From the human T2T-CHM13v2.0 reference genome, Homo sapiens, in the NCBI RefSeq assembly GCF_009914755.1, contig NC_060933.1: 64,000 nt of DNA. One strand, written 5' to 3'. This document shows positions 1 to 64,000 of the stretch, piece by piece. The notes below the pieces were generated by a model that did not search any database, had not been told where the DNA came from, and worked only from the letters and a program-made list of their open reading frames with translations. Within the stretch, counting starts at the first letter, position 1; each line of letters opens with the position of its first letter. Made by a program: the position numbers and the translations under genes.

Positions 1-3000
1 ACTGGAGGTTGCATTGTCCCCCAGGATTCCTCCTAAGCCGTGCCCTGTCTGTGCGGGCCCCCACTGGAGGTTGCATTGTCCCCCAGGATTCCTCCTAAGC
101 CGTGCCCTGTCTGTGCGGGCCCCCACTGGAGGTTGCATTGTCCCCCAGGATTCCTCCTAAGCCGTGCCCTGTCTGTGCGGGCCCCCACTGGAGGTTGCAT
201 TGTCCCCCAGGATTCCTCCTAAGCCGTGCCCTGTCTGTGCGGGCCCCCACTGGAGGTTGCATTGTCCCCCAGGATTCCTCCTAAGCCGTGCCCTGTCTGT
301 GCGCGCCCCCACTGGAGGTTGCATTGTCCCCCAGGATTCCTCCTAAGCCGTGCCCTGTCTGTGCGGGCCCCCACTGGAGGTTGCATTGTCCCCCAGGATT
401 CCTCCTAAGCCGTGCCCTGTCTGTGCGGGCCCCCACTGGAGGTTGCATTGTCCCCCAGGACTCCTCCTAAGCCGTGCCCTGTCTGTGCGGGCCCCCACTG
501 GAGGTTGCATTGTCCCCCAGGACTCCTCCTAAGCCGTGCCCTGTCTGTGCGGGCCCCCACTGGAGGTTGCATTGTCCCCCAGGACTCCTCCTAAGCCGTG
601 CCCTGTCTGTGCGGGCCCCCACTGGAGGTTGCATTGTCCCCCAGGACTCCTCCTAAGCCGTGCCCTGTCTGTGCGCGCCCCCACTGGAGGTTGCATTGTC
701 CCCCAGGACTCCTCCTAAGCCGTGCCCTGTCTGTGCGCGCCCCCACTGGAGGTTGCATTGTCCCCCAGGATTCCTCCTAAGCCGTGCCCTGTCTGTGCGC
801 GCCCCCACTGGAGGTTGCATTGTCCCCCAGGATTCCTCCTAAGCCGTGCCCTGTCTGTGCGGGCCCCCACTGGAGGTTGCATTGTCCCCCAGGATTCCTC
901 CTAAGCCGTGCCCTGTCTGTGCGGGCCCCCACTGGAGGTTGCATTGTCCCCCAGGATTCCTCCTAAGCCGTGCCCTGTCTGTGCGGGCCCCCACTGGAGG
1001 TTGCATTGTCCCCCAGGATTCCTCCTAAGCCGTGCCCTGTCTGTGCGCGCCCCCACTGGAGGTTGCATTGTCCCCCAGGATTCCTCCTAAGCCGTGCCCT
1101 GTCTGTGCGCGCCCCCACCGGAGGTTGCATTGTCCCCCAGGATTCCTCCTAAGCCGTGCCCTGTCTGTGCGGGCCCCCACCGGAGGTTGCATTGTCCCCC
1201 AGGATTCCTCCTAAGCCGTGCCCTGTCTGTGCGCGCCCCCACCGGAGGTTGCATTGTCCCCCAGGATTCCTCCTAAGCCGTGCCCTGTCTGTGCGGGCCC
1301 CCACCGGAGGTTGCATTGTCCCCCAGGATTCCTCCTAAGCCGTGCCCTGTCTGTGCGCGCCCCCACCGGAGGTTGCATTGTCCCCCAGGATTCCTCCTAA
1401 GCCGTGCCCTGTCTGTGCGCGCCCCCACCGGAGGTTGCATTGTCCCCCAGGATTCCTCCTAAGCCGTGCCCTGTCTGTGCGGGCCCCCACCGGAGGTTGC
1501 ATTGTCCCCCAGGATTCCTCCTAAGCCGTGCCCTGTCTGTGCGCGCCCCCACCGGAGGTTGCATTGTCCCCCAGGATTCCTCCTAAGCCGTGCCCTGTCT
1601 GTGCGCGCCCCCACCGGAGGTTGCATTGTCCCCCAGGATTCCTCCTAAGCCGTGCCCTGTCTGTGCGCGCCCCCACCGGAGGTTGCATTGTCCCCCAGGA
1701 TTCCTCCTAAGCCGTGCCCTGTCTGTGCGCGCCCCCACCGGAGGTTGCATTGTCCCCCAGGATTCCTCCTAAGCCGTGCCCTGTCTGTGCGCGCCCCCAC
1801 TGGAGGTTGCATTGTCCCCCAGGATTCCTCCTAAGCCGTGCCCTGTCTGTGCGCGCCCCCACTGGAGGTTGCATTGTCCCCCAGGATTTCTCCTAAGCCG
1901 TGCCCTGTCTGTGCGCGCCCCCACTGGAGGTTGCATTGTCCCCCAGGATTCCTCCTAAGCCGTGCCCTGTCTGTGCGCGCCCCCACTGGAGGTTGCATTG
2001 TCCCCCAGGATTCCTCCTAAGCCGTGCCCTGTCTGTGCGCGCCCCCACTGGAGGTTGCATTGTCCCCCAGGATTCCTCCTAAGCCGTGCCCTGTCTGTGC
2101 GGGCCCCCACTGGAGGTTGCATTGTCCCCCAGGATTCCTCCTAAGCCGTGCCCTGTCTGTGCGGGCCCCCACTGGAGGTTGCATTGTCCCCCAGGATTCC
2201 TCCTAAGCCGTGCCCTGTCTGTGCGCGCCCCCACTGGAGGTTGCATTGTCCCCCAGGATTCCTCCTAAGCCGTGCCCTGTCTGTGCGGGCCCCCACTGGA
2301 GGTTGCATTGTCCCCCAGGATTCCTCCTAAGCCGTGCCCTGTCTGTGCGCGCCCCCACTGGAGGTTGCATTGTCCCCCAGGATTCCTCCTAAGCCGTGCC
2401 CTGTCTGTGCGCGCCCCCACTGGAGGTTGCATTGTCCCCCAGGATTCCTCCTAAGCCGTGCCCTGTCTGTGCGCGCCCCCACTGGAGGTTGCATTGTCCC
2501 CCAGGATTCCTCCTAAGCCGTGCCCTGTCTGTGCGCGCCCCCACTGGAGGTTGCATTGTCCCCCAGGATTCCTCCTAAGCCGTGCCCTGTCTGTGCGCGC
2601 CCCCACTGGAGGTTGCATTGTCCCCCAGGATTCCTCCTAAGCCGTGCCCTGTCTGTGCGCGCCCCCACTGGAGGTTGCATTGTCCCCCAGGATTCCTCCT
2701 AAGCCGTGCCCTGTCTGTGCGCGCCCCCACTGGAGGTTGCATTGTCCCCCAGGATTCCTCCTAAGCCGTGCCCTGTCTGTGCGCGCCCCCACTGGAGGTT
2801 GCATTGTCCCCCAGGATTCCTCCTAAGCCGTGCCCTGTCTGTGCGCGCCCCCACTGGAGGTTGCATTGTCCCCCAGGATTCCTCCTAAGCCGTGCCCTGT
2901 CTGTGCGCGCCCCCACTGGAGGTTGCATTGTCCCCCAGGATTCCTCCTAAGCCGTGCCCTGTCTGTGCGCGCCCCCACTGGAGGTTGCATTGTCCCCCAG

Positions 3001-6000
3001 GATTCCTCCTAAGCCGTGCCCTGTCTGTGCGCGCCCCCACTGGAGGTTGCATTGTCCCCCAGGATTCCTCCTAAGCCGTGCCCTGTCTGTGCGCGCCCCC
3101 ACTGGAGGTTGCATTGTCCCCCAGGATTCCTCCTAAGCCGTGCCCTGTCTGTGCGCGCCCCCACCGGAGGTTGCATTGTCCCCCAGGATTCCTCCTAAGC
3201 CGTGCCCTGTCTGTGCGCGCCCCCACCGGAGGTTGCATTGTCCCCCAGGATTCCTCCTAAGCCGTGCCCTGTCTGTGCGCGCCCCCACCGGAGGTTGCAT
3301 TGTCCCCCAGGATTCCTCCTAAGCCGTGCCCTGTCTGTGCGCGCCCCCACCGGAGGTTGCATTGTCCCCCAGGATTCCTCCTAAGCCGTGCCCTGTCTGT
3401 GCGCGCCCCCACCGGAGGTTGCATTGTCCCCCAGGATTCCTCCTAAGCCGTGCCCTGTCTGTGCGCGCCCCCACCGGAGGTTGCATTGTCCCCCAGGATT
3501 CCTCCTAAGCCGTGCCCTGTCTGTGCGCGCCCCCACCGGAGGTTGCATTGTCCCCCAGGATTCCTCCTAAGCCGTGCCCTGTCTGTGCGCGCCCCCACCG
3601 GAGGTTGCATTGTCCCCCAGGATTCCTCCTAAGCCGTGCCCTGTCTGTGCGCGCCCCCACCGGAGGTTGCATTGTCCCCCAGGATTCCTCCTAAGCCGTG
3701 CCCTGTCTGTGCGCGCCCCCACCGGAGGTTGCATTGTCCCCCAGGATTCCTCCTAAGCCGTGCCCTGTCTGTGCGGGCCCCCACCGGAGGTTGCATTGTC
3801 CCCCAGGATTCCTCCTAAGCCGTGCCCTGTCTGTGCGGGCCCCCACCGGAGGTTGCATTGTCCCCCAGGATTCCTCCTAAGCCGTGCCCTGTCTGTGCGG
3901 GCCCCCACCGGAGGTTGCATTGTCCCCCAGGATTCCTCCTAAGCCGTGCCCTGTCTGTGCGGGCCCCCACCGGAGGTTGCATTGTCCCCCAGGATTCCTC
4001 CTAAGCCGTGCCCTGTCTGTGCGGGCCCCCACCGGAGGTTGCATTGTCCCCCAGGATTCCTCCTAAGCCGTGCCCTGTCTGTGCGCGCCCCCACCGGAGG
4101 TTGCATTGTCCCCCAGGATTCCTCCTAAGCCGTGCCCTGTCTGTGCGCGCCCCCACCGGAGGTTGCATTGTCCCCCAGGATTCCTCCTAAGCCGTGCCCT
4201 GTCTGTGCGCGCCCCCACCGGAGGTTGCATTGTCCCCCAGGATTCCTCCTAAGCCGTGCCCTGTCTGTGCGCGCCCCCACCGGAGGTTGCATTGTCCCCC
4301 AGGATTCCTCCTAAGCCGTGCCCTGTCTGTGCGCGCCCCCACCGGAGGTTGCATTGTCCCCCAGGATTCCTCCTAAGCCGTGCCCTGTCTGTGCGCGCCC
4401 CCACCGGAGGTTGCATTGTCCCCCAGGATTCCTCCTAAGCCGTGCCCTGTCTGTGCGCGCCCCCACCGGAGGTTGCATTGTCCCCCAGGATTCCTCCTAA
4501 GCCGTGCCCTGTCTGTGCGCGCCCCCACCGGAGGTTGCATTGTCCCCCAGGATTCCTCCTAAGCCGTGCCCTGTCTGTGCGCGCCCCCACCGGAGGTTGC
4601 ATTGTCCCCCAGGATTCCTCCTAAGCCGTGCCCTGTCTGTGCGCGCCCCCACCGGAGGTTGCATTGTCCCCCAGGATTCCTCCTAAGCCGTGCCCTGTCT
4701 GTGCGCGCCCCCACCGGAGGTTGCATTGTCCCCCAGGATTCCTCCTAAGCCGTGCCCTGTCTGTGCGCGCCCCCACCGGAGGTTGCATTGTCCCCCAGGA
4801 TTCCTCCTAAGCCGTGCCCTGTCTGTGCGCGCCCCCACCGGAGGTTGCATTGTCCCCCAGGATTCCTCCTAAGCCGTGCCCTGTCTGTGCGCGCCCCCAC
4901 CGGAGGTTGCATTGTCCCCCAGGATTCCTCCTAAGCCGTGCCCTGTCTGTGCGCGCCCCCACCGGAGGTTGCATTGTCCCCCAGGATTCCTCCTAAGCCG
5001 TGCCCTGTCTGTGCGCGCCCCCACTGGAGGTTGCATTGTCCCCCAGGATTCCTCCTAAGCCGTGCCCTGTCTGTGCGCGCCCCCACTGGAGGTTGCATTG
5101 TCCCCCAGGATTCCTCCTAAGCCGTGCCCTGTCTGTGCGGGCCCCCACTGGAGGTTGCATTGTCCCCCAGGATTCCTCCTAAGCCGTGCCCTGTCTGTGC
5201 GGGCCCCCACTGGAGGTTGCATTGTCCCCCAGGATTCCTCCTAAGCCGTGCCCTGTCTGTGCGCGCCCCCACTGGAGGTTGCATTGTCCCCCAGGATTCC
5301 TCCTAAGCCGTGCCCTGTCTGTGCGCGCCCCCACTGGAGGTTGCATTGTCCCCCAGGATTCCTCCTAAGCCGTGCCCTGTCTGTGCGCGCCCCCACTGGA
5401 GGTTGCATTGTCCCCCAGGATTCCTCCTAAGCCGTGCCCTGTCTGTGCGCGCCCCCACTGGAGGTTGCATTGTCCCCCAGGATTCCTCCTAAGCCGTGCC
5501 CTGTCTGTGCGCGCCCCCACTGGAGGTTGCATTGTCCCCCAGGATTCCTCCTAAGCCGTGCCCTGTCTGTGCGCGCCCCCACTGGAGGTTGCATTGTCCC
5601 CCAGGATTCCTCCTAAGCCGTGCCCTGTCTGTGCGCGCCCCCACTGGAGGTTGCATTGTCCCCCAGGATTCCTCCTAAGCCGTGCCCTGTCTGTGCGCGC
5701 CCCCACTGGAGGTTGCATTGTCCCCCAGGATTCCTCCTAAGCCGTGCCCTGTCTGTGCGCGCCCCCACTGGAGGTTGCATTGTCCCCCAGGATTCCTCCT
5801 AAGCCGTGCCCTGTCTGTGCGCGCCCCCACTGGAGGTTGCATTGTCCCCCAGGATTCCTCCTAAGCCGTGCCCTGTCTGTGCGCGCCCCCACTGGAGGTT
5901 GCATTGTCCCCCAGGATTCCTCCTAAGCCGTGCCCTGTCTGTGCGCGCCCCCACTGGAGGTTGCATTGTCCCCCAGGATTCCTCCTAAGCCGTGCCCTGT

Positions 6001-9000
6001 CTGTGCGCGCCCCCACTGGAGGTTGCATTGTCCCCCAGGATTCCTCCTAAGCCGTGCCCTGTCTGTGCGCGCCCCCACTGGAGGTTGCATTGTCCCCCAG
6101 GATTCCTCCTAAGCCGTGCCCTGTCTGTGCGCGCCCCCACTGGAGGTTGCATTGTCCCCCAGGATTCCTCCTAAGCCGTGCCCTGTCTGTGCGCGCCCCC
6201 ACTGGAGGTTGCATTGTCCCCCAGGATTCCTCCTAAGCCGTGCCCTGTCTGTGCGCGCCCCCACTGGAGGTTGCATTGTCCCCCAGGATTCCTCCTAAGC
6301 CGTGCCCTGTCTGTGCGCGCCCCCACTGGAGGTTGCATTGTCCCCCAGGATTCCTCCTAAGCCGTGCCCTGTCTGTGCGCGCCCCCACTGGAGGTTGCAT
6401 TGTCCCCCAGGATTCCTCCTAAGCCGTGCCCTGTCTGTGCGCGCCCCCACTGGAGGTTGCATTGTCCCCCAGGATTCCTCCTAAGCCGTGCCCTGTCTGT
6501 GCGCGCCCCCACTGGAGGTTGCATTGTCCCCCAGGATTCCTCCTAAGCCGTGCCCTGTCTGTGCGCGCCCCCACTGGAGGTTGCATTGTCCCCCAGGATT
6601 CCTCCTAAGCCGTGCCCTGTCTGTGCGCGCCCCCACTGGAGGTTGCATTGTCCCCCAGGATTCCTCCTAAGCCGTGCCCTGTCTGTGCGCGCCCCCACTG
6701 GAGGTTGCATTGTCCCCCAGGATTCCTCCTAAGCCGTGCCCTGTCTGTGCGCGCCCCCACTGGAGGTTGCATTGTCCCCCAGGATTCCTCCTAAGCCGTG
6801 CCCTGTCTGTGCGCGCCCCCACTGGAGGTTGCATTGTCCCCCAGGATTCCTCCTAAGCCGTGCCCTGTCTGTGCGCGCCCCCACTGGAGGTTGCATTGTC
6901 CCCCAGGATTCCTCCTAAGCCGTGCCCTGTCTGTGCGCGCCCCCACTGGAGGTTGCATTGTCCCCCAGGATTCCTCCTAAGCCGTGCCCTGTCTGTGCGC
7001 GCCCCCACTGGAGGTTGCATTGTCCCCCAGGATTCCTCCTAAGCCGTGCCCTGTCTGTGCGCGCCCCCACTGGAGGTTGCATTGTCCCCCAGGATTCCTC
7101 CTAAGCCGTGCCCTGTCTGTGCGCGCCCCCACTGGAGGTTGCATTGTCCCCCAGGATTCCTCCTAAGCCGTGCCCTGTCTGTGCGCGCCCCCACTGGAGG
7201 TTGCATTGTCCCCCAGGATTCCTCCTAAGCCGTGCCCTGTCTGTGCGCGCCCCCACTGGAGGTTGCATTGTCCCCCAGGATTCCTCCTAAGCCGTGCCCT
7301 GTCTGTGCGCGCCCCCACTGGAGGTTGCATTGTCCCCCAGGATTCCTCCTAAGCCGTGCCCTGTCTGTGCGCGCCCCCACTGGAGGTTGCATTGTCCCCC
7401 AGGATTCCTCCTAAGCCGTGCCCTGTCTGTGCGCGCCCCCACTGGAGGTTGCATTGTCCCCCAGGATTCCTCCTAAGCCGTGCCCTGTCTGTGCGCGCCC
7501 CCACTGGAGGTTGCATTGTCCCCCAGGATTCCTCCTAAGCCGTGCCCTGTCTGTGCGCGCCCCCACTGGAGGTTGCATTGTCCCCCAGGATTCCTCCTAA
7601 GCCGTGCCCTGTCTGTGCGCGCCCCCACTGGAGGTTGCATTGTCCCCCAGGATTCCTCCTAAGCCGTGCCCTGTCTGTGCGCGCCCCCACTGGAGGTTGC
7701 ATTGTCCCCCAGGATTCCTCCTAAGCCGTGCCCTGTCTGTGCGCGCCCCCACTGGAGGTTGCATTGTCCCCCAGGATTCCTCCTAAGCCGTGCCCTGTCT
7801 GTGCGCGCCCCCACTGGAGGTTGCATTGTCCCCCAGGATTCCTCCTAAGCCGTGCCCTGTCTGTGCGCGCCCCCACTGGAGGTTGCATTGTCCCCCAGGA
7901 TTCCTCCTAAGCCGTGCCCTGTCTGTGCGCGCCCCCACTGGAGGTTGCATTGTCCCCCAGGATTCCTCCTAAGCCGTGCCCTGTCTGTGCGCGCCCCCAC
8001 TGGAGGTTGCATTGTCCCCCAGGATTCCTCCTAAGCCGTGCCCTGTCTGTGCGCGCCCCCACTGGAGGTTGCATTGTCCCCCAGGATTCCTCCTAAGCCG
8101 TGCCCTGTCTGTGCGCGCCCCCACTGGAGGTTGCATTGTCCCCCAGGATTCCTCCTAAGCCGTGCCCTGTCTGTGCGCGCCCCCACTGGAGGTTGCATTG
8201 TCCCCCAGGATTCCTCCTAAGCCGTGCCCTGTCTGTGCGGGCCCCCACTGGAGGTTGCATTGTCCCCCAGGATTCCTCCTAAGCCGTGCCCTGTCTGTGC
8301 GGGCCCCCACTGGAGGTTGCATTGTCCCCCAGGATTCCTCCTAAGCCGTGCCCTGTCTGTGCGCGCCCCCACTGGAGGTTGCATTGTCCCCCAGGATTCC
8401 TCCTAAGCCGTGCCCTGTCTGTGCGCGCCCCCACTGGAGGTTGCATTGTCCCCCAGGATTCCTCCTAAGCCGTGCCCTGTCTGTGCGCGCCCCCACTGGA
8501 GGTTGCATTGTCCCCCAGGATTCCTCCTAAGCCGTGCCCTGTCTGTGCGCGCCCCCACTGGAGGTTGCATTGTCCCCCAGGATTCCTCCTAAGCCGTGCC
8601 CTGTCTGTGCGCGCCCCCACTGGAGGTTGCATTGTCCCCCAGGATTCCTCCTAAGCCGTGCCCTGTCTGTGCGCGCCCCCACTGGAGGTTGCATTGTCCC
8701 CCAGGATTCCTCCTAAGCCGTGCCCTGTCTGTGCGCGCCCCCACTGGAGGTTGCATTGTCCCCCAGGATTCCTCCTAAGCCGTGCCCTGTCTGTGCGCGC
8801 CCCCACTGGAGGTTGCATTGTCCCCCAGGATTCCTCCTAAGCCGTGCCCTGTCTGTGCGCGCCCCCACTGGAGGTTGCATTGTCCCCCAGGATTCCTCCT
8901 AAGCCGTGCCCTGTCTGTGCGCGCCCCCACTGGAGGTTGCATTGTCCCCCAGGATTCCTCCTAAGCCGTGCCCTGTCTGTGCGCGCCCCCACTGGAGGTT

Positions 9001-9691
9001 GCATTGTCCCCCAGGATTCCTCCTAAGCCGTGCCCTGTCTGTGCGCGCCCCCACTGGAGGTTGCATTGTCCCCCAGGATTCCTCCTAAGCCGTGCCCTGT
9101 CTGTGCGCGCCCCCACTGGAGGTTGCATTGTCCCCCAGGATTCCTCCTAAGCCGTGCCCTGTCTGTGCGCGCCCCCACTGGAGGTTGCATTGTCCCCCAG
9201 GATTCCTCCTAAGCCGTGCCCTGTCTGTGCGCGCCCCCACTGGAGGTTGCATTGTCCCCCAGGATTCCTCCTAAGCCGTGCCCTGTCTGTGCGGGCCCCC
9301 ACTGGAGGTTGCATTGTCCCCCAGGATTCCTCCTAAGCCGTGCCCTGTCTGTGCGGGCCCCCACTGGAGGTTGCATTGTCCCCCAGGATTCCTCCTAAGC
9401 CGTGCCCTGTCTGTGCGGGCCCCCACTGGAGGTTGCATTGTCCCCCAGGATTCCTCCTAAGCCGTGCCCTGTCTGTGCGCGCCCCCACTGGAGGTTGCAT
9501 TGTCCCCCAGGATTCCTCCTAAGCCGTGCCCTGTCTGTGCGCGCCCCCACTGGAGGTTGCATTGTCCCCCAGGATTCCTCCTAAGCCGTGCCCTGTCTGT
9601 GCGCGCCCCCACTGGAGGTTGCATTGTCCCCCAGGATTCCTCCTAAGCCGTGCCCTGTCTGTGCGCGCCCCCACTGGAGGTTGCATTGTCC
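1..9691 (+). repeat. 62-bp minisatellite (VNTR), about 156 copies, continuing past the window start; derived from the HERV-H gag zinc-knuckle coding sequence
   Basis: Unit actggaggttgcattgtcccccaggattcctcctaagccgtgccctgtctgtgcg(g/c)gccccc repeats with an exact 62-nt period (the ORF track repeats every 62 nt). The last unit runs directly into unique gag sequence at 9692. Confidence 0.99.
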
Positions 9692-9791
9692 GACTCACAT
9701 CGTCGCGGCTCCTAAAGCCCCTGGAGCCCAAACCCAACGTTCTTTGGCCGACTCCCTCCCAGATCTCCTCGGCTTAGCAGCTGAAGACTGA
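9624..9791 (+). pseudogene. gag: HERV-H gag C-terminus (last zinc knuckle and tail)
   Basis: Translates as ..PRIPPKPCPVCARPHWRLHCPTHIVAAPKAPGAQTQRSLADSLPDLLGLAAED* with TGA at 9789-9791. It contains a C-x2-C-x3-H-x4-C knuckle and a tail I recognise as HERV-H Gag. Confidence 0.85.
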
Positions 9792-10200
9792 CGCTGCCTG
9801 ATCGCATCCCCTAGGAAGCCCCCTGGATCATCACGGACGCCGAGCTTCGGGTAACTCTTATGGTGGAGGGTAAGTCCATCCCCTGTTTAATTGATACGGG
9901 GCCTACCCACTCCACATTACCTTCTTCTCAAGGGCCTGTTTCTTTGCCCCATAACTGTTGTGGGTATTGACGGCCAGGCTTCTAAACCCCTTAAAACTCC
10001 CCCACTCTGATGCCAACTTGGACAACATTCTTTTATGCACTCTGTTTTAGTTATCCCCACCTGCCCAGTTCACTTATTAGGCTGAGACATTTTAACTAAA
10101 TTATCTGCTTCCCTGACTATTCCTGGACTACAGCCACATCTCATTGCCACCCGTCTTCTCAACTCAAAGCCTCCTTCATGTCTTCCTCTCGTATCCCCCC
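9792..10200 (+). pseudogene. pro: HERV-H protease remnant (disrupted)
   Basis: tta att gat acg ggg encodes LIDTG, the aspartyl protease motif, at 9887-9901. No intact ORF is present. Confidence 0.8.
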
Positions 10201-12808
10201 AACTTAACCCACAAGTATGGGACATCTCTACTCCCTCCCTGGCAATCGATCACATGCCCATTACTATCCTATTAAAACCTAATCACCCATACCCTGCTCA
10301 ATGCCAGTATCCCATCCCACAACAGGCTTTAAGGGGATTTAAGGGGATTATCACTCACCTGCTACAGCATAGGCTTCTAAAACCTATAAACTCTCCTTAC
10401 AATTCTCCCATTTTACCTGTTCAAAAACCAGACAAGTCTTACAGGTTAGTTCAGGATCTGCGCCTTATCAACCAATTTGTTTTGCCTAGTCACCACGTGG
10501 TGCCCCACCGTACACTCTTTTGTCCTCAATACCTTCCTCCACAACTCACTATTCCATTCTCGATCTTAAAGATGCTTTTTTCACTATTCCTCTGTACCCC
10601 TCGTCCCAGCCTCTCTTTGCTTTTACCTGGACTGACCCTGACACCCATCGGTCCCAGCAGCTTACCTGGGCTGTGCTGCCGCAAGGTTTCGGGGACAGCC
10701 CTCATTACTTCAGCCAAGCTCTTTCTCATGATTTACTTTCTTTCCACCCCTCTGCTTCTCACCTTATTCAATATATTGATGACCTTCTTCTTTGTAGCCC
10801 CTCCTTTGAATCTTCTCAATGAGACACCCTCCTGCTCCTTCAACATTTATTCTCCAAGGGATATCGGGTATCCCCCTCCAAAGCTCAAATTTCTTCTCCA
10901 TCCATTACCTACCTTGGCATAATTCTTCATAAAAACACACGTGCTCTCCCTGCCGATAGTGTCCGACTGATCTCTCAAACCCCAACCCCTTCTACAAAAC
11001 AACAACTCCCTTCCTTCCTGGGCATGGTTGGATGCTTTCACCTTTGGAAACCTGGTTTTGCCACCCTAACAAAACCATTATATAAAGTCACAAAAGGAAA
11101 CCTAGCTGACCCCATAGATCCTAAATCCTTTCCCCACTCCTCTTTCCATTCCTTGAAGACAGCTTTAGAGACTGCCCTCACACTAGCCCTCCCTGACTCA
11201 TCCCAACCCTTTTCATTACACACGGCTGAAGTGCAGGGCTGTGCAGTCGGAATTCTCACACAAGGACCGGGATGATGCCCTGTAGCCTTTTTGTCCAAAC
11301 AATTTGACCTCACTGTTTTAGGCTGGCCATCATGTCTCCATGCAGCGGCTGCTGCCGCCCTAATACTTTTAGAGGCCCTCAAAATCACAAACTATGCTCA
11401 ACTCACTCTCTATGGCTCTCATAACTTCCAAAATCTATTTTCTCCCTCACACCCGTCACATATACTTTCTGCTCCCCGGCTCCTTCACTCTTTGTCGAGT
11501 CTCCCACAGTTACCATTGTTCCTGGCCCGCACTTCAATCCGGCCTGCCATGTTATTCCTGATACCACACTTGACCCCCATGACTGTTTCTCTCTGATACA
11601 CCTGACATTCACTCCATTTCCCCATATTTCCTTCTTTCCTGTTCCTCACCCTGATCACACTTGGTTTACTGATGGCAGTTCCACCAGGCCTAATTGCCAC
11701 TCACCAGCAAAGGCAGGCTATGCTATAGTATCTTCCACATCTATCATTGAGGCTATCGCTCTACCCCCCAACTACCTCTCAGCAAGCCAAACTCGTTGCC
11801 TTAACTCAAGCCCTCACTTTTGCAAAGGAATTATGCGTCAATATTTATACTGACTCTAAATATGCCTTCCATATCCTGCACCACCATGCTGTTACATGGG
11901 CTGAAAGAGGTTTCCTCACTATGTAAGGGTCCTCCATCATTAATGCCTCTTAAATAAAAACTCTGCTCAAGGCCGCTTTACTTCCAAAGGAAGCTGGAGT
12001 CCTTCACTGCAAGGGCCACCAAAAGGCATCAGATCCCATCGCTCAGGGCAACGCTTACACTGATAAGGTAGCTAAAGAAGCAGCTAGCGTTCCAACTTCT
12101 GTCCCTCACATCCAGTTTTTCTCCTTCACATCGGTCACTCCCACCTACTCTCCCACTGAAACTTCCACCTATCAGTCTCTTCCCACACAAGGCCAATGGT
12201 TCTTAGACCAAGGAAAATATCTCCTTCCAGCCTCACAGGCCCATTCTATTCTATCGTCATTTTATAACCTCTTCCGTGTAGGTTACAAGCCGCTAGCCCG
12301 TCTCTTAGAACCTCTCATTTCCTTTCCATCATGGAAATCTATCCTCAAGGAAATCACTTCTCAGTGTTGCATCTGCTATTCTACTACTCCTCAGGGATTA
12401 TTCAGGGCCCCTCCCTTCCCTACACATCAAGCTCAGGGATTTGGCCCTGCCCAGGACTGGCAAATTGACTTTACTCACATGCCTCAACTCAGGAAAATAA
12501 AATACCTCTTGGTCTGGGTAGACACTTTCACTGGATAGGTAGAGGCCTTTCCCGCAGGGTCTGAGAAGGCCACCGCAGTCATTTCTTCCCTTCTGTCAGA
12601 TATAATTCCTCGGTTTGGCCTTCCCACCTCTATACAGTCCAATAACAGACCAGCCTTTATTAGTCGAATCACCCAAGCTGTTTCTCAGGCTCTTGGTCTT
12701 CAGTGGAACTTTCATACCCCTTACCGTCCTCAATCTTCAGGAAAGGTAGAATGGATTAATGGTCTTTTAAAAACACACCTCACCAAGCTCAGCCTCCAAC
12801 TTAAAAAA
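10201..12808 (+). pseudogene. pol: HERV-H pol remnant (RT, RNase H, integrase) with frameshifts and stops
   Basis: RT motifs PVQKPDKSYRLVQDLR, LDLKDAFF, LPQGF and QYIDDLLL (ORFs 10254 and 10520). RNase H motifs WFTDGS (~11662) and NIYTDSKYAF (~11840). Integrase motif DWQIDFTHMP (~12455). Confidence 0.92.
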
Positions 12809-13060
12809 GAGGACTCTGTCAAGGATAGAGCCCAAAAACTCACCAACCAAGCTGAACCCCCTTGGACACTCTCTAATTAGACGTCCTGGGTTCTCCCAAT
12901 TCTTAGTCCTTTAACACCTATTTTTCTCCTTTTATTCAGACCTTGTGTCTTTTGTTTAGTTTCTCAATTCATACAAAACCACATCCAGGCCATCACCAAT
13001 AATTCTATACAGCAAATGCTCCTTCTAACAACCCCACAATATCACCCCTTACCATAAAAT
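12809..13060 (+). pseudogene. env: HERV-H env 3' remnant (TM/cytoplasmic tail); most of env is deleted
   Basis: Integrase sequence joins at ~12808 directly to the env TM tail (..ccttgtgtcttttgtttagtttctcaattcatacaaaaccacatccaggccatcacc..). No SU region is visible, as is typical of the common env-deleted HERV-H. Confidence 0.7.
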
Positions 13061-13236
13061 CTTTCTTCAGCTTCATCTCTCCCACTCTAGGTTCCCACGC
13101 TGCCCCTAATCCTGCTCGAAGCAGCCCTGAGAAACATCGCCCGTTATCTCTCAATACCACTCCCAAAAAATTTCACTGCCCCAACACTTCAATACTATTT
13201 TATGTTATTTGTCTTATTAATATAAGAAGGCAGGAA

Positions 13237-13669
13237 TGTCAGGCCTCTGAGCCCAAGCTAAGCCATCGTATCCCCTGTGACCTGCACGTATACATCCAGA
13301 TGGCCTGAAGCAACTGAAGATCCAATTGAAGAAGTGAAAATAGCCTTAACTGATGACATTCCACCATTGTGATTTGTTTCTGCCCCACCCTAACTGATCA
13401 ATGTACTTTGTAATCTCCCGCACCCTTAAGAAGGTTCTTTGTAATTCTCCCCACCCTTGAGAATGTACTTTGTGAGATCCACCCACTGCCTGCAAAACAT
13501 TGCTCCTAACTCCACCGCCTATCCCAAAACCTATGAGAACTAATGATAATCCACCACTCTTTGCTGACTCTCTTTTCGGACTCAGCCCACCTGCACCCAG
13601 GTGACATAAACAGCCTTGTTGCTCACACAAAGCCTGTTTGGTGGTCTCTGCACACGGACACGTGAGACA
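13237..13669 (+). mobile_element. 3' LTR of HERV-H (LTR7 family), 433 bp
   Basis: Preceded by the polypurine tract aagaaggcaggaa (13224-13236). TG...CA termini and characteristic LTR7 sequence throughout. Confidence 0.95.
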
Positions 13670-15430
<1,761 letters not shown>

Positions 15431-29077: not shown

Positions 29078-29791
29078 GCATGGACACCATGAAGGGAGGC
29101 AGAGCCTGTGACAGGAACGCTCAGCCAGGGAGGCTTCTCTGATGAGGGCCAGAGCTGTCCAGGCCAGGCCTGGGGGGACAGACGCACATTCACGTTCAAG
29201 GTTTTATTTGAACATGGTTTCAATGAATCCTCTCAATGTTTTGAAATTCCAACTTAGTTTCAGTCGTCTACAAAACCTTTGCTCCCCCGTAGCAGCACCC
29301 CCTTTATGTTGTTATTATCACAAATTACATCTTGACACACTGGGCCACCAGCAGGACTTATAATTATTGTAATAGGCAGTTGTCTCTTTAAATTGCAAGG
29401 CACTTACAGCGAAGGTGCCTGCATGCTCCCTCTAGTCCCCCAGGGAAGCAGCCCGAGCCCCTGGGAAGGGCCAGGTATTAACTTGCCAGACATCGCAGCT
29501 CATTCCAGGCTCCCAGCCACTCTTCCGTCAGTGGATTCCAATTCTGAAAATCGGCTCATGTCCAGAAACAGCACGGGAGTGTGACTTCCTGCTGGGGCAG
29601 CCCCTCAGCCCCTGCCCTCTGTTGACTCTTACATGTGAAGCTTCCCCCTTGTTGGCCACTGGTTTCACCCCTCAGGGCACCGTGCTCTGTTACCACCCCC
29701 TGTTACTGCCCCCAAGCCCCTCGGTGGCCGCCTGCCTCATCTTCCCCACGGGGATTAGGGAGCCCGGCTCTGTAGCTGCGTCTCCCATCAT

Positions 29792-30083
29792 CAGCACAGG
29801 CTGCAGAGGGGGAACCCCTCGACTCTCCCACCCTCAGCACAGGCTGCAGATGGGGAACCCCTCAACTCTCCCACCCTCAGCACAGGCTGCAGACGGGGAA
29901 CCCCTCGACTCTCCCACCCTCAGCACAGGCTGCAGAGGGGGAACCCCTCGACTCTCCCACCCTCAGCACAGGCTGCAGACGGGGAACCCCTCGACTCTCC
30001 CACCCTCAGCACAGGCTGCAGACGGGGAACCTCTTGACTCTCCCACCCTCAGCACAGGCTGCAGACGGGGAATGCCTCGACTT
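29792..30083 (+). repeat. 43-bp minisatellite, about 6.7 copies
   Basis: Unit cagcacaggctgcagacggggaacccctcgactctcccaccct starts at 29792, 29835, 29878, and so on to 30050. Confidence 0.95.
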
Positions 30084-36200: not shown

Positions 36201-37432
36201 GACTTTTTATTTTTTTTAAAAAGAAATGAATTTCAAAAGCATGTACAACTGCACAATAAATTGCACGTAGATGTACAGAGAGAAAGGGAACGGTGAACAC
36301 AAAATTCTGGACAGTGATGACCTCTGAGATGCGGAAGTCCGGGAGGGGCTGCACCGTGCTTGGATGCTGGGATCCTCTGTGTCTTCCACAGAGCCCTAGT
36401 GCCTGTTATTATTTGTAGAATTAAATGTTAATTATATAAAAAGAAAAAAACCCTCCTAGTTCTCCTCCCCGCTTCCCCATAAGAGGACCCAGCACACAGT
36501 GACAGAGTTGAGATCTACAGGGGACATCGCAGGAACAACTGAAGAGGTGCTGGGCTTGCAGGTGCTGTGCTGGGAGGGTGGGGTGCAGGAGCCTAGTGTG
36601 GAGGGCGGCCGGGGTGTGGCTACAACCACCACCTCCCACCGCAAGGGCTGTGACCAACTTTGGGACCCCTGGAGGAGTTTCTGGGGAACCAGAGTGACAC
36701 CAGTCTGTCCAATTTGTGACCTTCCCCAGTGGCGGGAGCCTGGGTGGGTGTCTCTGGAGGTTCCAGATGGGAATTCTGCCAGGTGAGAAAGAGGGTGAGG
36801 GAGTGAGGGATGGGGGTGGGGGACAGGGGGCAGCAGAAGGACTCTGAGGTTGGAGAGGGATGGGGGAGGGGCTGTGAGCAAGTGTGCTGGAGGGTCCGGA
36901 GGAAGATGGGACCCTCGAGGGGTGACAAGCTCGCTGGTCGTTGGCTTAGACACTGCAGCAGTGCCCACCACGCAGCCTGTCCTGGACTTAGTCACCCCCA
37001 GCTCCAGACTTGTCAACTCTACACATTTCTCTTGTGGATTCTCTTCCCTATAGCCCTGGATGAGCATTTCAAACCCTCTCCTCCCTCGCCAACCTGCAAA
37101 TGCCCCCTTCTCACTCTCAGTTGCTTGTTTTGTTTCTTGTTTCACTGAGAAAGTAGAATAATCACAATAAAACCCTCATCCTCCCCCAAATGAATCCTCC
37201 AGCCCACCTGTGCCTGCAATCGTGCGACCCGCTTTTCTTTCCCTGCCTCGAGTGAGCTGTCCCAAGTCTGATGCCCTCTTGCCTGGACGAGGCAAGACAC
37301 TCTTTTTCTTGCATCAGCAATTTTTCTTTCTGTTGAGTCATTGCCATCACATACGAAGTCCAATAATATCCCCTACCTTAAAAAACAAACAAACAAAAAA
37401 CTCCTTAATGCTGCATCTGTGTTGTTCCCTGT

Positions 37433-38413
37433 CTCACTGGACAAGCTGTCTACACCTGCTGTAGGGACTTCCTCACCGAACGAGCTGTCTACACCTGCTG
37501 TAGGGATTTCCTCACCAACCGAGCTGTCTACACCTCCTGTAGGGACTTCCTCACCGACCGAGCTGTCTACACCTGCTGTAGGGACTTCCTCACCGACCGA
37601 GCTGTCTACACCTGCTGTAGGGACTTCCTCACCGACCGAGCTGTCTACACCTGCTGTAGGGACTTCCTCACCGACCGAGCTGTCTACACCTGCTGTAGGG
37701 ACTTCCTCACCGACCGAGCTGTCTACACCTGCTGTAGGGACTTCCTCACCGACCGAGCTGTCTACACCTGCTGTAGGGACTTCCTCACCGACCGAGCTGT
37801 CTACACCTGCTGTAGGGACTTCCTCACCGACCGAGCTGTCTACACCTGCTGTAGGCACTTCCTCACCGACCGAGCTGTCTACACCTGCTGTAGGCACTTC
37901 CTCACTGGACGAGCTGTCTACACCTGCTGTAGGCACTTCCTCACTGGACGAGCTGTCTACACCTGCTGTAGGCACTTCCTCACTGAACGAGCTGTCTACA
38001 CCTGCTGTAGGGACTTCCTCACCGACCGAGCTGTCTACACCTGCTGTAGGGACTTCCTCACCGACCAAGCTGTCTACACCTGCTGTAGGGACTTCCTAAC
38101 TGAACAAGCTGTCTACACCCGCAGTAGGCACTGCCTCACTGACCGAGCTGTCTACACCCGCTATAGGGACTTCCTAACTGAACAAGCTGTCTACACCCAC
38201 AGTAGGCACTGCCTCACTGACCGAGCTGTCTACACCCGCTATAGACACTTCCTCACTGACCGAGCTGTCTATACCTGCTGTAGGGACTTCCTCACTGAAC
38301 GAGCTGTCTACACCTGCTGTAGGCACTTCCTCACTGAATGAGCTGTCTATACCTGCTGTAGGGACTTCCTCACTGAACGAGCTGTCTACACCCGCTGTAG
38401 GGACTTCCTCACA
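37433..38413 (+). repeat. 39-bp minisatellite, about 25 copies, embedded in an L2 remnant
   Basis: Unit gagctgtctacacctgctgtagggacttcctcaccgacc (13 codons). The downstream flank cattctcttcaatccgccccactcgggc..tctgtggaaactgct resembles L2 RT sequence. Confidence 0.95.
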
Positions 38414-52085: not shown

Positions 52086-52293
52086 GACCTGACGCTGTGT
52101 CTGAAAACAGGTGACAGCCCAGAGACGCTGCCTTCCCGCAAGGCGACCTGACGCTGTGTCTGAACACAGGTGACAGCCCAGAGACGCTGCCTTCCCGCAA
52201 GGCGACCTGACGCTGTGTCTGAACACAGGTGACAGCCCAGAGACGCTGCCTTCCCACAAGGCGACCTGACACTGTGTCTGAACACAGGTGACA
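52086..52293 (+). repeat. 59-bp minisatellite, about 3.5 copies
   Basis: Unit gacctgacgctgtgtctgaacacaggtgacagcccagagacgctgccttcccgcaaggc starts at 52086, 52145, 52204 and 52263. Confidence 0.93.
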
Positions 52294-63555: not shown

Positions 63556-64000
63556 TTGTGTCTCTGCTGTGTGTGTCTGCGCCGTGTGTCTCTGTGTCTG
63601 TGTATGTGTGTCTCTGTGTCCGTGTCTGTACTGTGTGTCTCTGTGTCTGTGTCTGTGTGTCTCTGTGTCCGTGTGTCCATGTCTGTGCTGTGTGTCTCTG
63701 TGTCTGTCTATGTGTGTCTCTGTGTCCGTGTGTCCATGTCTGTGCCGTGTGTCTCTGTGTCTGTGTATGTGTGTCTCTGTGTCTGTGTGTCTGTGCTGTG
63801 TGTCCCTGTGTTTGTGTATGTGTGTCTCTGTGTTCGTGTCTGTGCTGTGTGTCCCTGTGTCTGTGCCGTGTGTCTCTGTGTCTGTGCTGTGTGTCTCTCT
63901 GTCCCTGTGTCTGTGTGTCCCTGTGTCCTTGTGTCTGTGTGTGTACCGTGTGTCCCTGTGTCTGTGTGTCCTTGTGTCTGTGCTGTGTGTCCCTGTGTCT
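63556..64000 (+). repeat. Low-complexity (TG/TC) degenerate tandem repeat running off the window end
   Basis: Composed of tgtgtgtctctgtgtctgtg-type units and almost free of A. Confidence 0.9.

What the first reader, a model, noticed from the sequence alone, without database searches (positions are those of the whole stretch)
1..9791. A 10-kb minisatellite whose unit is the HERV-H Gag zinc-knuckle coding sequence
Seen: the 62-bp unit read in one frame gives PRIPPKP-CPVCA(G/R)PHWRLHC-P, a C-x2-C-x3-H-x4-C motif. The last copy continues in frame into the Gag C-terminus (THIVAAPKAPG...DLLGLAAED*), followed by pro, pol and LTR7. Known: HERV-H Gag nucleocapsid has zinc knuckles immediately before this tail. 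Inference: one knuckle was duplicated inside the provirus and then amplified at least 156-fold, making the array longer than a typical whole HERV-H. Because 62 is not a multiple of 3 and each unit has a TAA, no poly-knuckle protein is encoded, so any effect would be at the DNA, RNA or chromatin level. I cannot tell whether this origin has been reported before.
Basis: partly seen in the sequence, partly recalled or inferred. Interest (0 to 1): 0.8.

Follow-up and report, generated by a model that had tools for sequence, protein, structure and literature searches.

The report
Retrovirus gag fragment amplified into minisatellite
A 62-base piece of a dead HERV-H retrovirus gene, the part that once encoded a zinc knuckle, has been copied head to tail 161 times to form a 10-kb non-coding repeat between EHMT1 and CACNA1B; it is real and large, but its retroviral origin was already listed in a 2012 repeat catalogue.

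Summary
The array is 161 whole 62-bp units (9,982 bp, no indels). It starts 291 bp before the window and ends at window 9691. The unit is the linker plus second zinc knuckle (C-x2-C-x3-H-x4-C) of a gammaretrovirus-like gag. It lies after a Gag_p30 capsid remnant and a first knuckle, and before the gag tail, protease, RT, integrase and an LTR7-type 3' LTR. It is single-copy in 8 of 8 related proviruses. The tandem junction occurs 160 times in the genome, exactly the 160 junctions that 161 units make. All six frames close every 186 bp, so no protein is encoded. The provirus lacks its 5' LTR, primer-binding site and gag start, so the proposed target-site duplication cannot be checked. The origin is not new. 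Ahmed & Liang 2012, supplementary table, lists this locus in hg19 with the identical unit, matched to HERVH-int, at only 23 copies. That is the highest of 146 HERVH rows. Best reading: a subtelomeric retrovirus-derived VNTR grown by slippage or unequal exchange, probably neutral. No function was shown.

The parts
1..9691 (+). 62-bp tandem array. The window holds the last 19 bases of unit 5 and units 6 to 161. The array starts 291 bp before the window at L009:9710. Total 161 units, 9,982 bp.
   Evidence: TRF; unit census; junction 30-mer found 160 times genome-wide, equal to the 160 junctions of 161 units
9692..9791 (+). gag C-terminal tail read in frame from the last unit, ending in a TGA stop at 9789-9791
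   Evidence: translations; colinear with relatives
9848..9949 (+). retroviral aspartyl protease remnant, contains the LIDTG motif
   Evidence: Pfam RVP 18.1 bits, below the cut-off of 20.7; translation
10538..10804 (+). reverse transcriptase remnant, contains the YIDD motif
   Evidence: Pfam RVT_1 55.5 bits, cut-off 29.6, E 8e-15
11138..11263 (+). RNase H-like remnant
   Evidence: Pfam RT_RNaseH_2 20.1 bits, below the cut-off of 29.8
12446..12730 (+). integrase core remnant, split over two frames
   Evidence: Pfam rve 19.9 and 27.6 bits, both below the cut-off of 32.6
13238..13669 (+). 3' LTR of the LTR7 family, subfamily not determined. It holds a 31-bp x 2.3 internal repeat at 13403-13473.
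   Evidence: 91-93% identical to the 5' LTRs of 3 related proviruses; first 22 nt identical to the LTR7 sequences printed in bioRxiv 10.1101/2021.07.08.451617; TRF

Best explanation
This is a non-coding minisatellite (VNTR) that arose in place inside an already dead, 5'-truncated HERV-H provirus. A 62-bp segment of gag, the linker plus the second nucleocapsid zinc knuckle, was duplicated in tandem once with a blunt junction. It was then expanded and homogenised by replication slippage, unequal sister-chromatid exchange or gene conversion to 161 copies in this assembly. The setting is a GC-rich, minisatellite-rich region about 0.5 Mb from the chromosome end. Shown here: the structure, the origin, the uniqueness of the junction, the lack of coding capacity and the block-wise variant pattern. 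Inferred: the molecular mechanism of growth, and that the array is selectively neutral. If it has any effect, that effect would be in cis and depend on length: up to 491 extra CpGs and 10 kb of spacing, 7.7 kb past the EHMT1 3' end and 31 kb before the CACNA1B start.
For: The array is 161 whole units with no indels. The unit is single-copy and colinear in 8 of 8 relatives. All 39 scored genome matches to the array are 62 nt or shorter, that is one unit (39 of 478 candidates were scored). The junction 30-mer with up to 3 mismatches occurs 160 times genome-wide, the number expected from this array alone; the 100 listed places all lie inside it and 60 were not listed. All 161 units carry GCAT where all 8 relatives have GGAC, so the array grew from this provirus's own sequence. 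Copy 1 keeps CCCGGG, as 4 of 8 relatives do, while the other 160 read CCCAGG. Variants sit in blocks: 35 runs against 101 +/- 4.8 in shuffles, with 0 of 10,000 shuffles as low. All four combinations of the two common variant sites are present. These patterns fit local duplication and exchange. Copy number differs between assemblies: 23 in hg19 and 161 here. Other minisatellites lie nearby: 25 bp x 19 and 66 bp x 12 upstream, and 39 bp x 25, 43 bp x 7 and 57 bp x 8 in the window. The array ends 505,556 bp from the contig end. No frame stays open beyond 61 aa.
Against: No direct evidence bears on mechanism or neutrality: I had no reads, population data, methylation data or expression data. The 23-copy hg19 allele could be a collapsed or deleted clone rather than a true short allele. 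The single strands of the unit do not fold unusually well (z 0.61 and -0.42). The array holds no canonical G-quadruplex motif (0 at loops up to 12). It holds no exact PRDM9 13-mer: 0 of the window's 13 matches fall in the array. So nothing in the sequence explains why this segment, of all HERV-H segments, expanded.
Confidence: 0.85

Rival explanations
1. The array has a length-dependent cis-regulatory or chromatin role. It would act as a CpG-dense, methylated or KRAB-zinc-finger/TRIM28-bound block whose 161 identical sites nucleate heterochromatin or insulate EHMT1 from CACNA1B.
For: The array has 491 CpGs in 9,982 bp at GC 65%. HERVH-int is reported as the preferred target of ZFP69B, and VNTRs inside SVA elements recruit many KZFPs (passages of PMC10547255). 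The array sits between two dosage-sensitive neuronal genes (hub annotation; distances).
Against: CpG observed/expected is 0.48, below the usual CpG-island threshold. RefSeq lists no functional element over the array (hub annotation). Where ZFP69B binds within HERVH-int is not known to me. No binding, methylation or expression data could be examined. A 7-fold length difference between two assemblies argues against tight constraint.
Confidence: 0.1
2. The 10-kb length is an assembly artefact, an over-expanded repeat, and the true allele is near the 23 copies of hg19.
For: hg19 holds 23 copies, 1,435 bp. The array contains a run of 48 identical units, about 3 kb, whose count is hard to verify without reads.
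Against: The array is an exact whole number of units and has a structured, non-periodic variant map with 9 unit types in 35 runs. That is not what a collapsed or inflated repeat usually looks like. From general knowledge, not tested: 10 kb is shorter than the long accurate reads used for such complete assemblies, and clone-based references tend to lose tandem copies.
Confidence: 0.04
3. The repeat was carried by the infecting virus, or was copied in from another locus, rather than arising in place.
For: None found.
Against: 8 of 8 relatives have one copy. No tandem junction was found elsewhere in the genome. The array is the only row with this unit among the 146 HERVH rows of the hg19 catalogue. 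All units carry a locus-specific substitution. From general knowledge: 10 kb of extra RNA would not fit a retroviral particle.
Confidence: 0.01

Closest known systems
TE-derived minisatellites catalogued by Ahmed & Liang 2012 (PMC3389668; passages and supplementary file 2 seen)
   Same: This very locus is row 2569: TR ID 168122997, hg19 chr9:140739506-140740940, unit 62 bp, 98% identity, matched TE HERVH-int on the + strand. Its consensus is identical to the commonest unit here. The class is a TE segment duplicated after insertion; 7,276 of 31,472 minisatellites fall in it.
   Different: The catalogue lists 23 copies where this assembly has 161. It has the most copies of the 146 HERVH rows; the next are 12.86 and 9.63. 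The passages I read do not discuss this locus, and the table has no column for gag or the zinc knuckle.
VNTR region of SVA retrotransposons
   Same: A GC-rich, variable tandem array inside a retroelement that encodes nothing and is a strong recruiter of KRAB zinc-finger proteins (passages of PMC10547255).
   Different: The SVA VNTR is part of the mobile unit and is spread by retrotransposition to thousands of loci. This array is confined to one immobile provirus remnant. KZFP binding is not shown here.
Internal tandem repeats of LTR12 and L1PA, and the SST1 TE-derived satellite
   Same: Tandem repeats whose units come from retroelement sequence.
   Different: The LTR12 and L1PA repeats are in the family consensus and recur at many loci. 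SST1 forms arrays on several chromosomes and is described as carrying an enhancer in each unit. Here the unit is single-copy in the family and amplified at one locus only.
Retroviral nucleocapsid CCHC zinc knuckle
   Same: The unit's reading frame gives Cys-Cys-His-Cys directly after a canonical first knuckle and the capsid, as in 6 of 8 relatives.
   Different: The spacing is C-x2-C-x3-H-x4-C, not the canonical x4. Pfam reports no knuckle family at E <= 0.01. In the array the motif is never translated as a repeat, because 62 is not a multiple of 3 and every frame closes.

Membership tests
HERV-H provirus (HERVH-int with LTR7-type LTR) | Internal sequence homologous to HERVH-int | tested here: met
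   A published hg19 table assigns the identical unit at this locus to HERVH-int. Gag, unit and pol are colinear at 78-93% identity with 8 dispersed genomic copies. I could not align to the Dfam/Repbase consensus itself.
HERV-H provirus (HERVH-int with LTR7-type LTR) | LTR of the LTR7 group | tested here: met
   The first 22 nt of the 3' LTR (window 13238-13259) are identical to the LTR7 sequences printed in bioRxiv 10.1101/2021.07.08.451617. By eye, both ends resemble those sequences and the central block differs. The subfamily (7, 7B, 7C or 7Y) was not determined.
HERV-H provirus (HERVH-int with LTR7-type LTR) | Primer-binding site complementary to tRNA-His | tested here: inconclusive
   This copy has no PBS because it is 5'-truncated. 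In 3 of 3 fuller relatives the site after the 5' LTR starts TGGTGC. In L016 it matches the 3' end of an ARAGORN-confirmed tRNA-His at 13 of 16 positions with one gap. Local scores are 7-8 for His, 4-5 for Gly and 5-6 for Lys. Only three tRNAs were compared.
HERV-H provirus (HERVH-int with LTR7-type LTR) | Gammaretrovirus-like gag-pro-pol order | tested here: met
   Gag_p30 scores 34.7 bits (cut-off 27.4) upstream of the array. RVT_1 scores 55.5 bits (cut-off 29.6). RVP, RT_RNaseH_2 and rve appear in the expected order but below their cut-offs.
Retroviral CCHC zinc knuckle (zf-CCHC) | C-x2-C-x4-H-x4-C spacing and a profile match | tested here: not met
   The unit reads C-x2-C-x3-H-x4-C. No Pfam knuckle family appears at E <= 0.01 for the two fragments that contain it. 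It is a knuckle-like motif by position and residue pattern only.
Minisatellite / VNTR | Head-to-tail units of roughly 10-100 bp | tested here: met
   62 bp x 161 copies, 99% matches.
Minisatellite / VNTR | Copy number varies between individuals | tested here: inconclusive
   There are 23 copies in hg19 and 161 here. That is only two assemblies, and the older one is clone-based and may have lost copies. No population data were reachable: one search found nothing in the supplements held for the 1,019-genome study.
TE-derived tandem repeat that arose after insertion | Unit is single-copy in the parent family and tandem only at this locus | tested here: met
   8 of 8 relatives are single-copy. The junction is unique to this array. 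There is one row with this unit in the hg19 catalogue.

The most novel reading that the evidence does not exclude
The array is a highly multi-allelic variant, 23 to at least 161 copies (1.4 to 10 kb) and up to about 490 CpGs. Its repeated HERV-H gag motif would act as a multiplied landing pad for a HERVH-int-binding KRAB zinc-finger protein or for DNA methylation. Copy number would then tune chromatin and expression of EHMT1 and/or CACNA1B in cis, and the expansion may be human-specific.
Probability: 0.1. Interest if true: 0.6.

Novelty: already known. Interest (0 to 1): 0.3.

Why it matters
As it stands this is an ordinary kind of object, a retroelement-derived minisatellite, in an unusually large form. 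Two things are of practical use. First, the array is about seven times longer in the complete assembly than in hg19, so short-read and hg19/hg38-based analyses of the EHMT1-CACNA1B interval misjudge about 8.5 kb of CpG-rich sequence. Second, it is the most expanded HERV-H-derived tandem repeat in the one catalogue I could check. That makes it a convenient locus for studying how a single retroviral segment becomes a VNTR. It would matter more if copy number proved to influence methylation or expression of the two flanking neurodevelopmental genes.

Tried and rejected
1. Unusual single-strand DNA structure as a driver of slippage: three units folded as DNA give z 0.61 on the + strand and -0.42 on the - strand against shuffles. 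Rejected.

2. G-quadruplex potential: 0 motifs on either strand with loops up to 7 or up to 12. Only a non-canonical definition with loops up to 20 gives 117, on the - strand. Rejected as a clear feature.

3. PRDM9 hotspot 13-mer (motif recalled from memory): 13 matches in the window against 7.0 expected, none inside the array.

4. Known RNA families in window 1-14000: none at gathering score.

5. Search for the 5' LTR, primer-binding site and target-site duplication: there is no LTR homology in 30 kb upstream or elsewhere in the window. Homology to relatives starts at L009:8597, about 870-1,190 nt into the internal region of 3 fuller copies. The AGTTC flank cannot be paired.

6. Literature: searches found no paper that discusses this array. 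The terms covered HERVH/VNTR/CACNA1B, a 24-nt piece of the unit, EHMT1/CACNA1B/tandem repeat, HERV-H/minisatellite/gag, HERVH-int/tandem repeat/T2T-CHM13, VNTR/CACNA1B and EHMT1/VNTR. The T2T repeat preprint has no HERVH, LTR7 or chr9 mention in its main text. PMC3927684 and PMC8102501 proved irrelevant. The supplements held for PMC12350158 contain no number beginning with the digits of the array's start or end coordinates. A paper on human-specific tandem-repeat expansion that I recalled could not be opened.

8. Not tried: protein homology searches, structure prediction and complex prediction. The unit encodes no protein, so they would not bear on the question.

Full report
**What is there**

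Tandem Repeats Finder reports a 62-bp period, 156.3 copies, 99% matches and no indels over window 1-9691. The array runs off the window's start, so I fetched 30 kb upstream from the same contig. The array begins at L009:9710, only 291 bp before the window.

Phased as in gag, it is exactly 161 whole units, 9,982 bp, at contig C9:150101710-150111691. Six of the 62 positions vary and there are nine unit types. The commonest type makes up 90 of 161 copies, and 84 of 9,982 bases differ from it. GC is 65%, with 491 CpGs at observed/expected 0.48.

**What the unit is**

Read in one frame, the unit gives P(G/R)IPPKP-CPVCA(G/R)PHWRLHC, a C-x2-C-x3-H-x4-C motif. The last copy runs in frame into THIVAAPKAPG...DLLGLAAED and a stop at 9789-9791.

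The 1.1 kb before the array (L009:8597-9709) is gag:
- Two fragments match Pfam Gag_p30, at 34.7 bits (above the 27.4 cut-off) and 23 bits.
- Just before the first unit lies a first knuckle, which here reads CFKG...HWASEC and so lacks its second cysteine.

After the array, in order, come:
- a protease remnant with LIDTG (RVP 18.1 bits, below cut-off);
- reverse transcriptase (RVT_1 55.5 bits, cut-off 29.6);
- RNase H-like and integrase-core remnants (below cut-offs);
- a 432-bp LTR at 13238-13669.

**Is it HERV-H?**

Three lines of evidence bear on this.
- A genome search with the array returned single-unit matches of 62 nt or less at 87-98% identity on many chromosomes; 39 of 478 candidates were scored. 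Eight fetched loci are colinear with the gag flank and with the downstream flank.
- The first 22 nt of the LTR are identical to the LTR7 sequences printed in the methods of Carter et al. (bioRxiv 10.1101/2021.07.08.451617; passages seen). By eye both LTR ends resemble those sequences while the central block differs, so I leave the subfamily open.
- The supplementary table of Ahmed & Liang 2012 assigns this very repeat to HERVH-int.

The histidine primer-binding site cannot be tested at this locus because the 5' part is missing. In three fuller relatives the site after the 5' LTR begins TGGTGC. It matches the 3' end of an ARAGORN-confirmed tRNA-His only imperfectly, 13 of 16 positions with one gap at best. 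That is better than the two other tRNAs at hand, but it is a thin control.

**Origin in place**

In 8 of 8 relatives the 62 bp are a single contiguous stretch. It sits between a first canonical knuckle, whose CxxC is kept in 5 of 8, and the THI... tail. The second knuckle's C-C-H-C is kept in 6 of 8.

All 161 units carry GCAT where all 8 relatives have GGAC, so the array was built from this provirus's own, already mutated sequence. Copy 1 keeps CCCGGG, as 4 of 8 relatives do, and the other 160 copies read CCCAGG.

The junction is blunt; I see no microhomology between the two ends in the alignment. A 30-nt junction pattern with up to 3 mismatches occurs 160 times in the whole genome, all on the forward strand, with 0 in the reversed-pattern control. 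That equals the 160 junctions of 161 units. The 100 listed places are all in this array and 60 were not listed. A junction built on the relatives' version of the unit would differ at 4 positions and would escape this pattern. For those copies I rely (no match longer than one unit) and on the hg19 catalogue (one row with this unit).

**How it grew**

Unit types sit in blocks: 35 runs against 101 +/- 4.8 in 10,000 shuffles, none as low. The state GCGGGC, shared with 4 of 8 relatives (the other 4 differ from it by one base), is concentrated at the 5' end. The bulk is a derived GCGCGC type, including a run of 48 identical units. All four combinations of the two common variant sites occur.

This is the pattern expected from repeated local duplication, unequal exchange and conversion. 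The mechanism itself is inferred, not observed.

The neighbourhood is rich in other minisatellites, and the array ends 505,556 bp from the contig end. From general knowledge, subtelomeric regions are enriched for VNTRs.

**Coding capacity**

There is none. The 160 extra units add 9,920 nt, which is not a multiple of 3. Each of the six frames has 53-54 stops and a longest open stretch of 61 aa. Gag was already broken upstream by stops and by the damaged first knuckle.

**The provirus is incomplete**

No LTR homology exists in the 30 kb upstream or elsewhere in the window. Homology to three fuller relatives starts at L009:8597, about 870-1,190 nt beyond their 5' LTRs. The five bases after the 3' LTR are indeed AGTTC.

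The array (9,982 bp) is about twice as long as the rest of the provirus, which is 1,113 + 3,978 bp.

**Prior knowledge**

Seven full-text searches found no paper that discusses this array. Nor did the main text of the T2T repeat preprint.

The locus is, however, listed in Ahmed & Liang 2012, which catalogued 7,276 TE-derived minisatellites in hg19 (PMC3389668; passages). Supplementary file 2, row 2569, reads: chr9:140739506-140740940, unit 62, 23 repeats, 98% identity, HERVH-int, + strand. Its consensus is identical to the commonest unit here.

I read all 146 rows whose matched TE begins with HERVH. This row has the most copies; the next have 12.86 and 9.63. From my recollection of the hg19 start of CACNA1B, which is not from a call, the distance from the array's end to the gene is about 31.3 kb in hg19. 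It is 31,235 bp here, which fits the same locus.

So the TE origin is already recorded. To my knowledge what is not in print is that the unit is exactly the second nucleocapsid knuckle, and that a complete assembly carries 161 copies rather than 23. Supplements of other VNTR catalogues that I could not open may well list the locus.

**Function**

Nothing I could compute points to one:
- no Rfam family;
- no unusual strand folding;
- no canonical G-quadruplex motif;
- no PRDM9 13-mer in the array;
- no RefSeq functional element over it (hub annotation).

The seven-fold difference between two assemblies suggests loose constraint, if both are correct. The boldest reading still open is a length-dependent chromatin effect. 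HERVH-int is reported as the favoured target of ZFP69B, and SVA VNTRs recruit many KRAB zinc-finger proteins (PMC10547255, passages). Whether any of them binds this 62-bp segment is unknown.

**Verdict**

The object is an already catalogued, probably neutral, retrovirus-derived VNTR of exceptional size for its family.

Noticed in passing
L009:6933-7426 (window -3067 to -2574): A 25-bp x 19.2 C-rich minisatellite with 85% matches, 2.3 kb upstream of the array.
   Followed up: no
L010:7704-8482: A 66-bp x 11.7 tandem repeat with a 334-bp higher-order period, about 12 kb upstream of the array and upstream of the RefSeq EHMT1 3' end, so inside the gene's span.
   Followed up: no
window 37444-38412: A 39-bp x 24.8 minisatellite with 93% matches and no indels. 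It partly overlaps the RefSeq enhancer 36685-37884 and lies about 2.5 kb upstream of CACNA1B exon 1. It may be a more plausible regulatory VNTR than the HERV-H array.
   Followed up: no
window 29781-30082, 52086-52293, 63557-64000: Further minisatellites of 43 bp x 7, 59 bp x 3.5 and 57 bp x 8, the last within a GT-rich tract. The whole interval is minisatellite-dense.
   Followed up: no
window 13238-13669: The 3' LTR shares its two ends with the printed LTR7 sequences, but its central block differs from them and holds a 31-bp x 2.3 repeat at 13403-13473. A similar LTR sequence appears in another HERVH row of the hg19 catalogue, row 1634. The subfamily was not assigned.
   Followed up: partly
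L009:8597 (window -1403): The provirus is cut off here. The sequence just upstream shows no homology to the 3 fuller relatives compared. By eye it looks like LINE-1-type repeats, as does the DNA after the 3' LTR; I did not test this. How the 5' LTR and leader were lost is unexplained.
   Followed up: partly
L009:9650-9709 (window -350 to -291): The first nucleocapsid knuckle of this copy lacks its second cysteine: it reads CFKG where 5 of 8 relatives read CFKC or CFIC. Gag was therefore already defective, apart from the array.
   Followed up: yes
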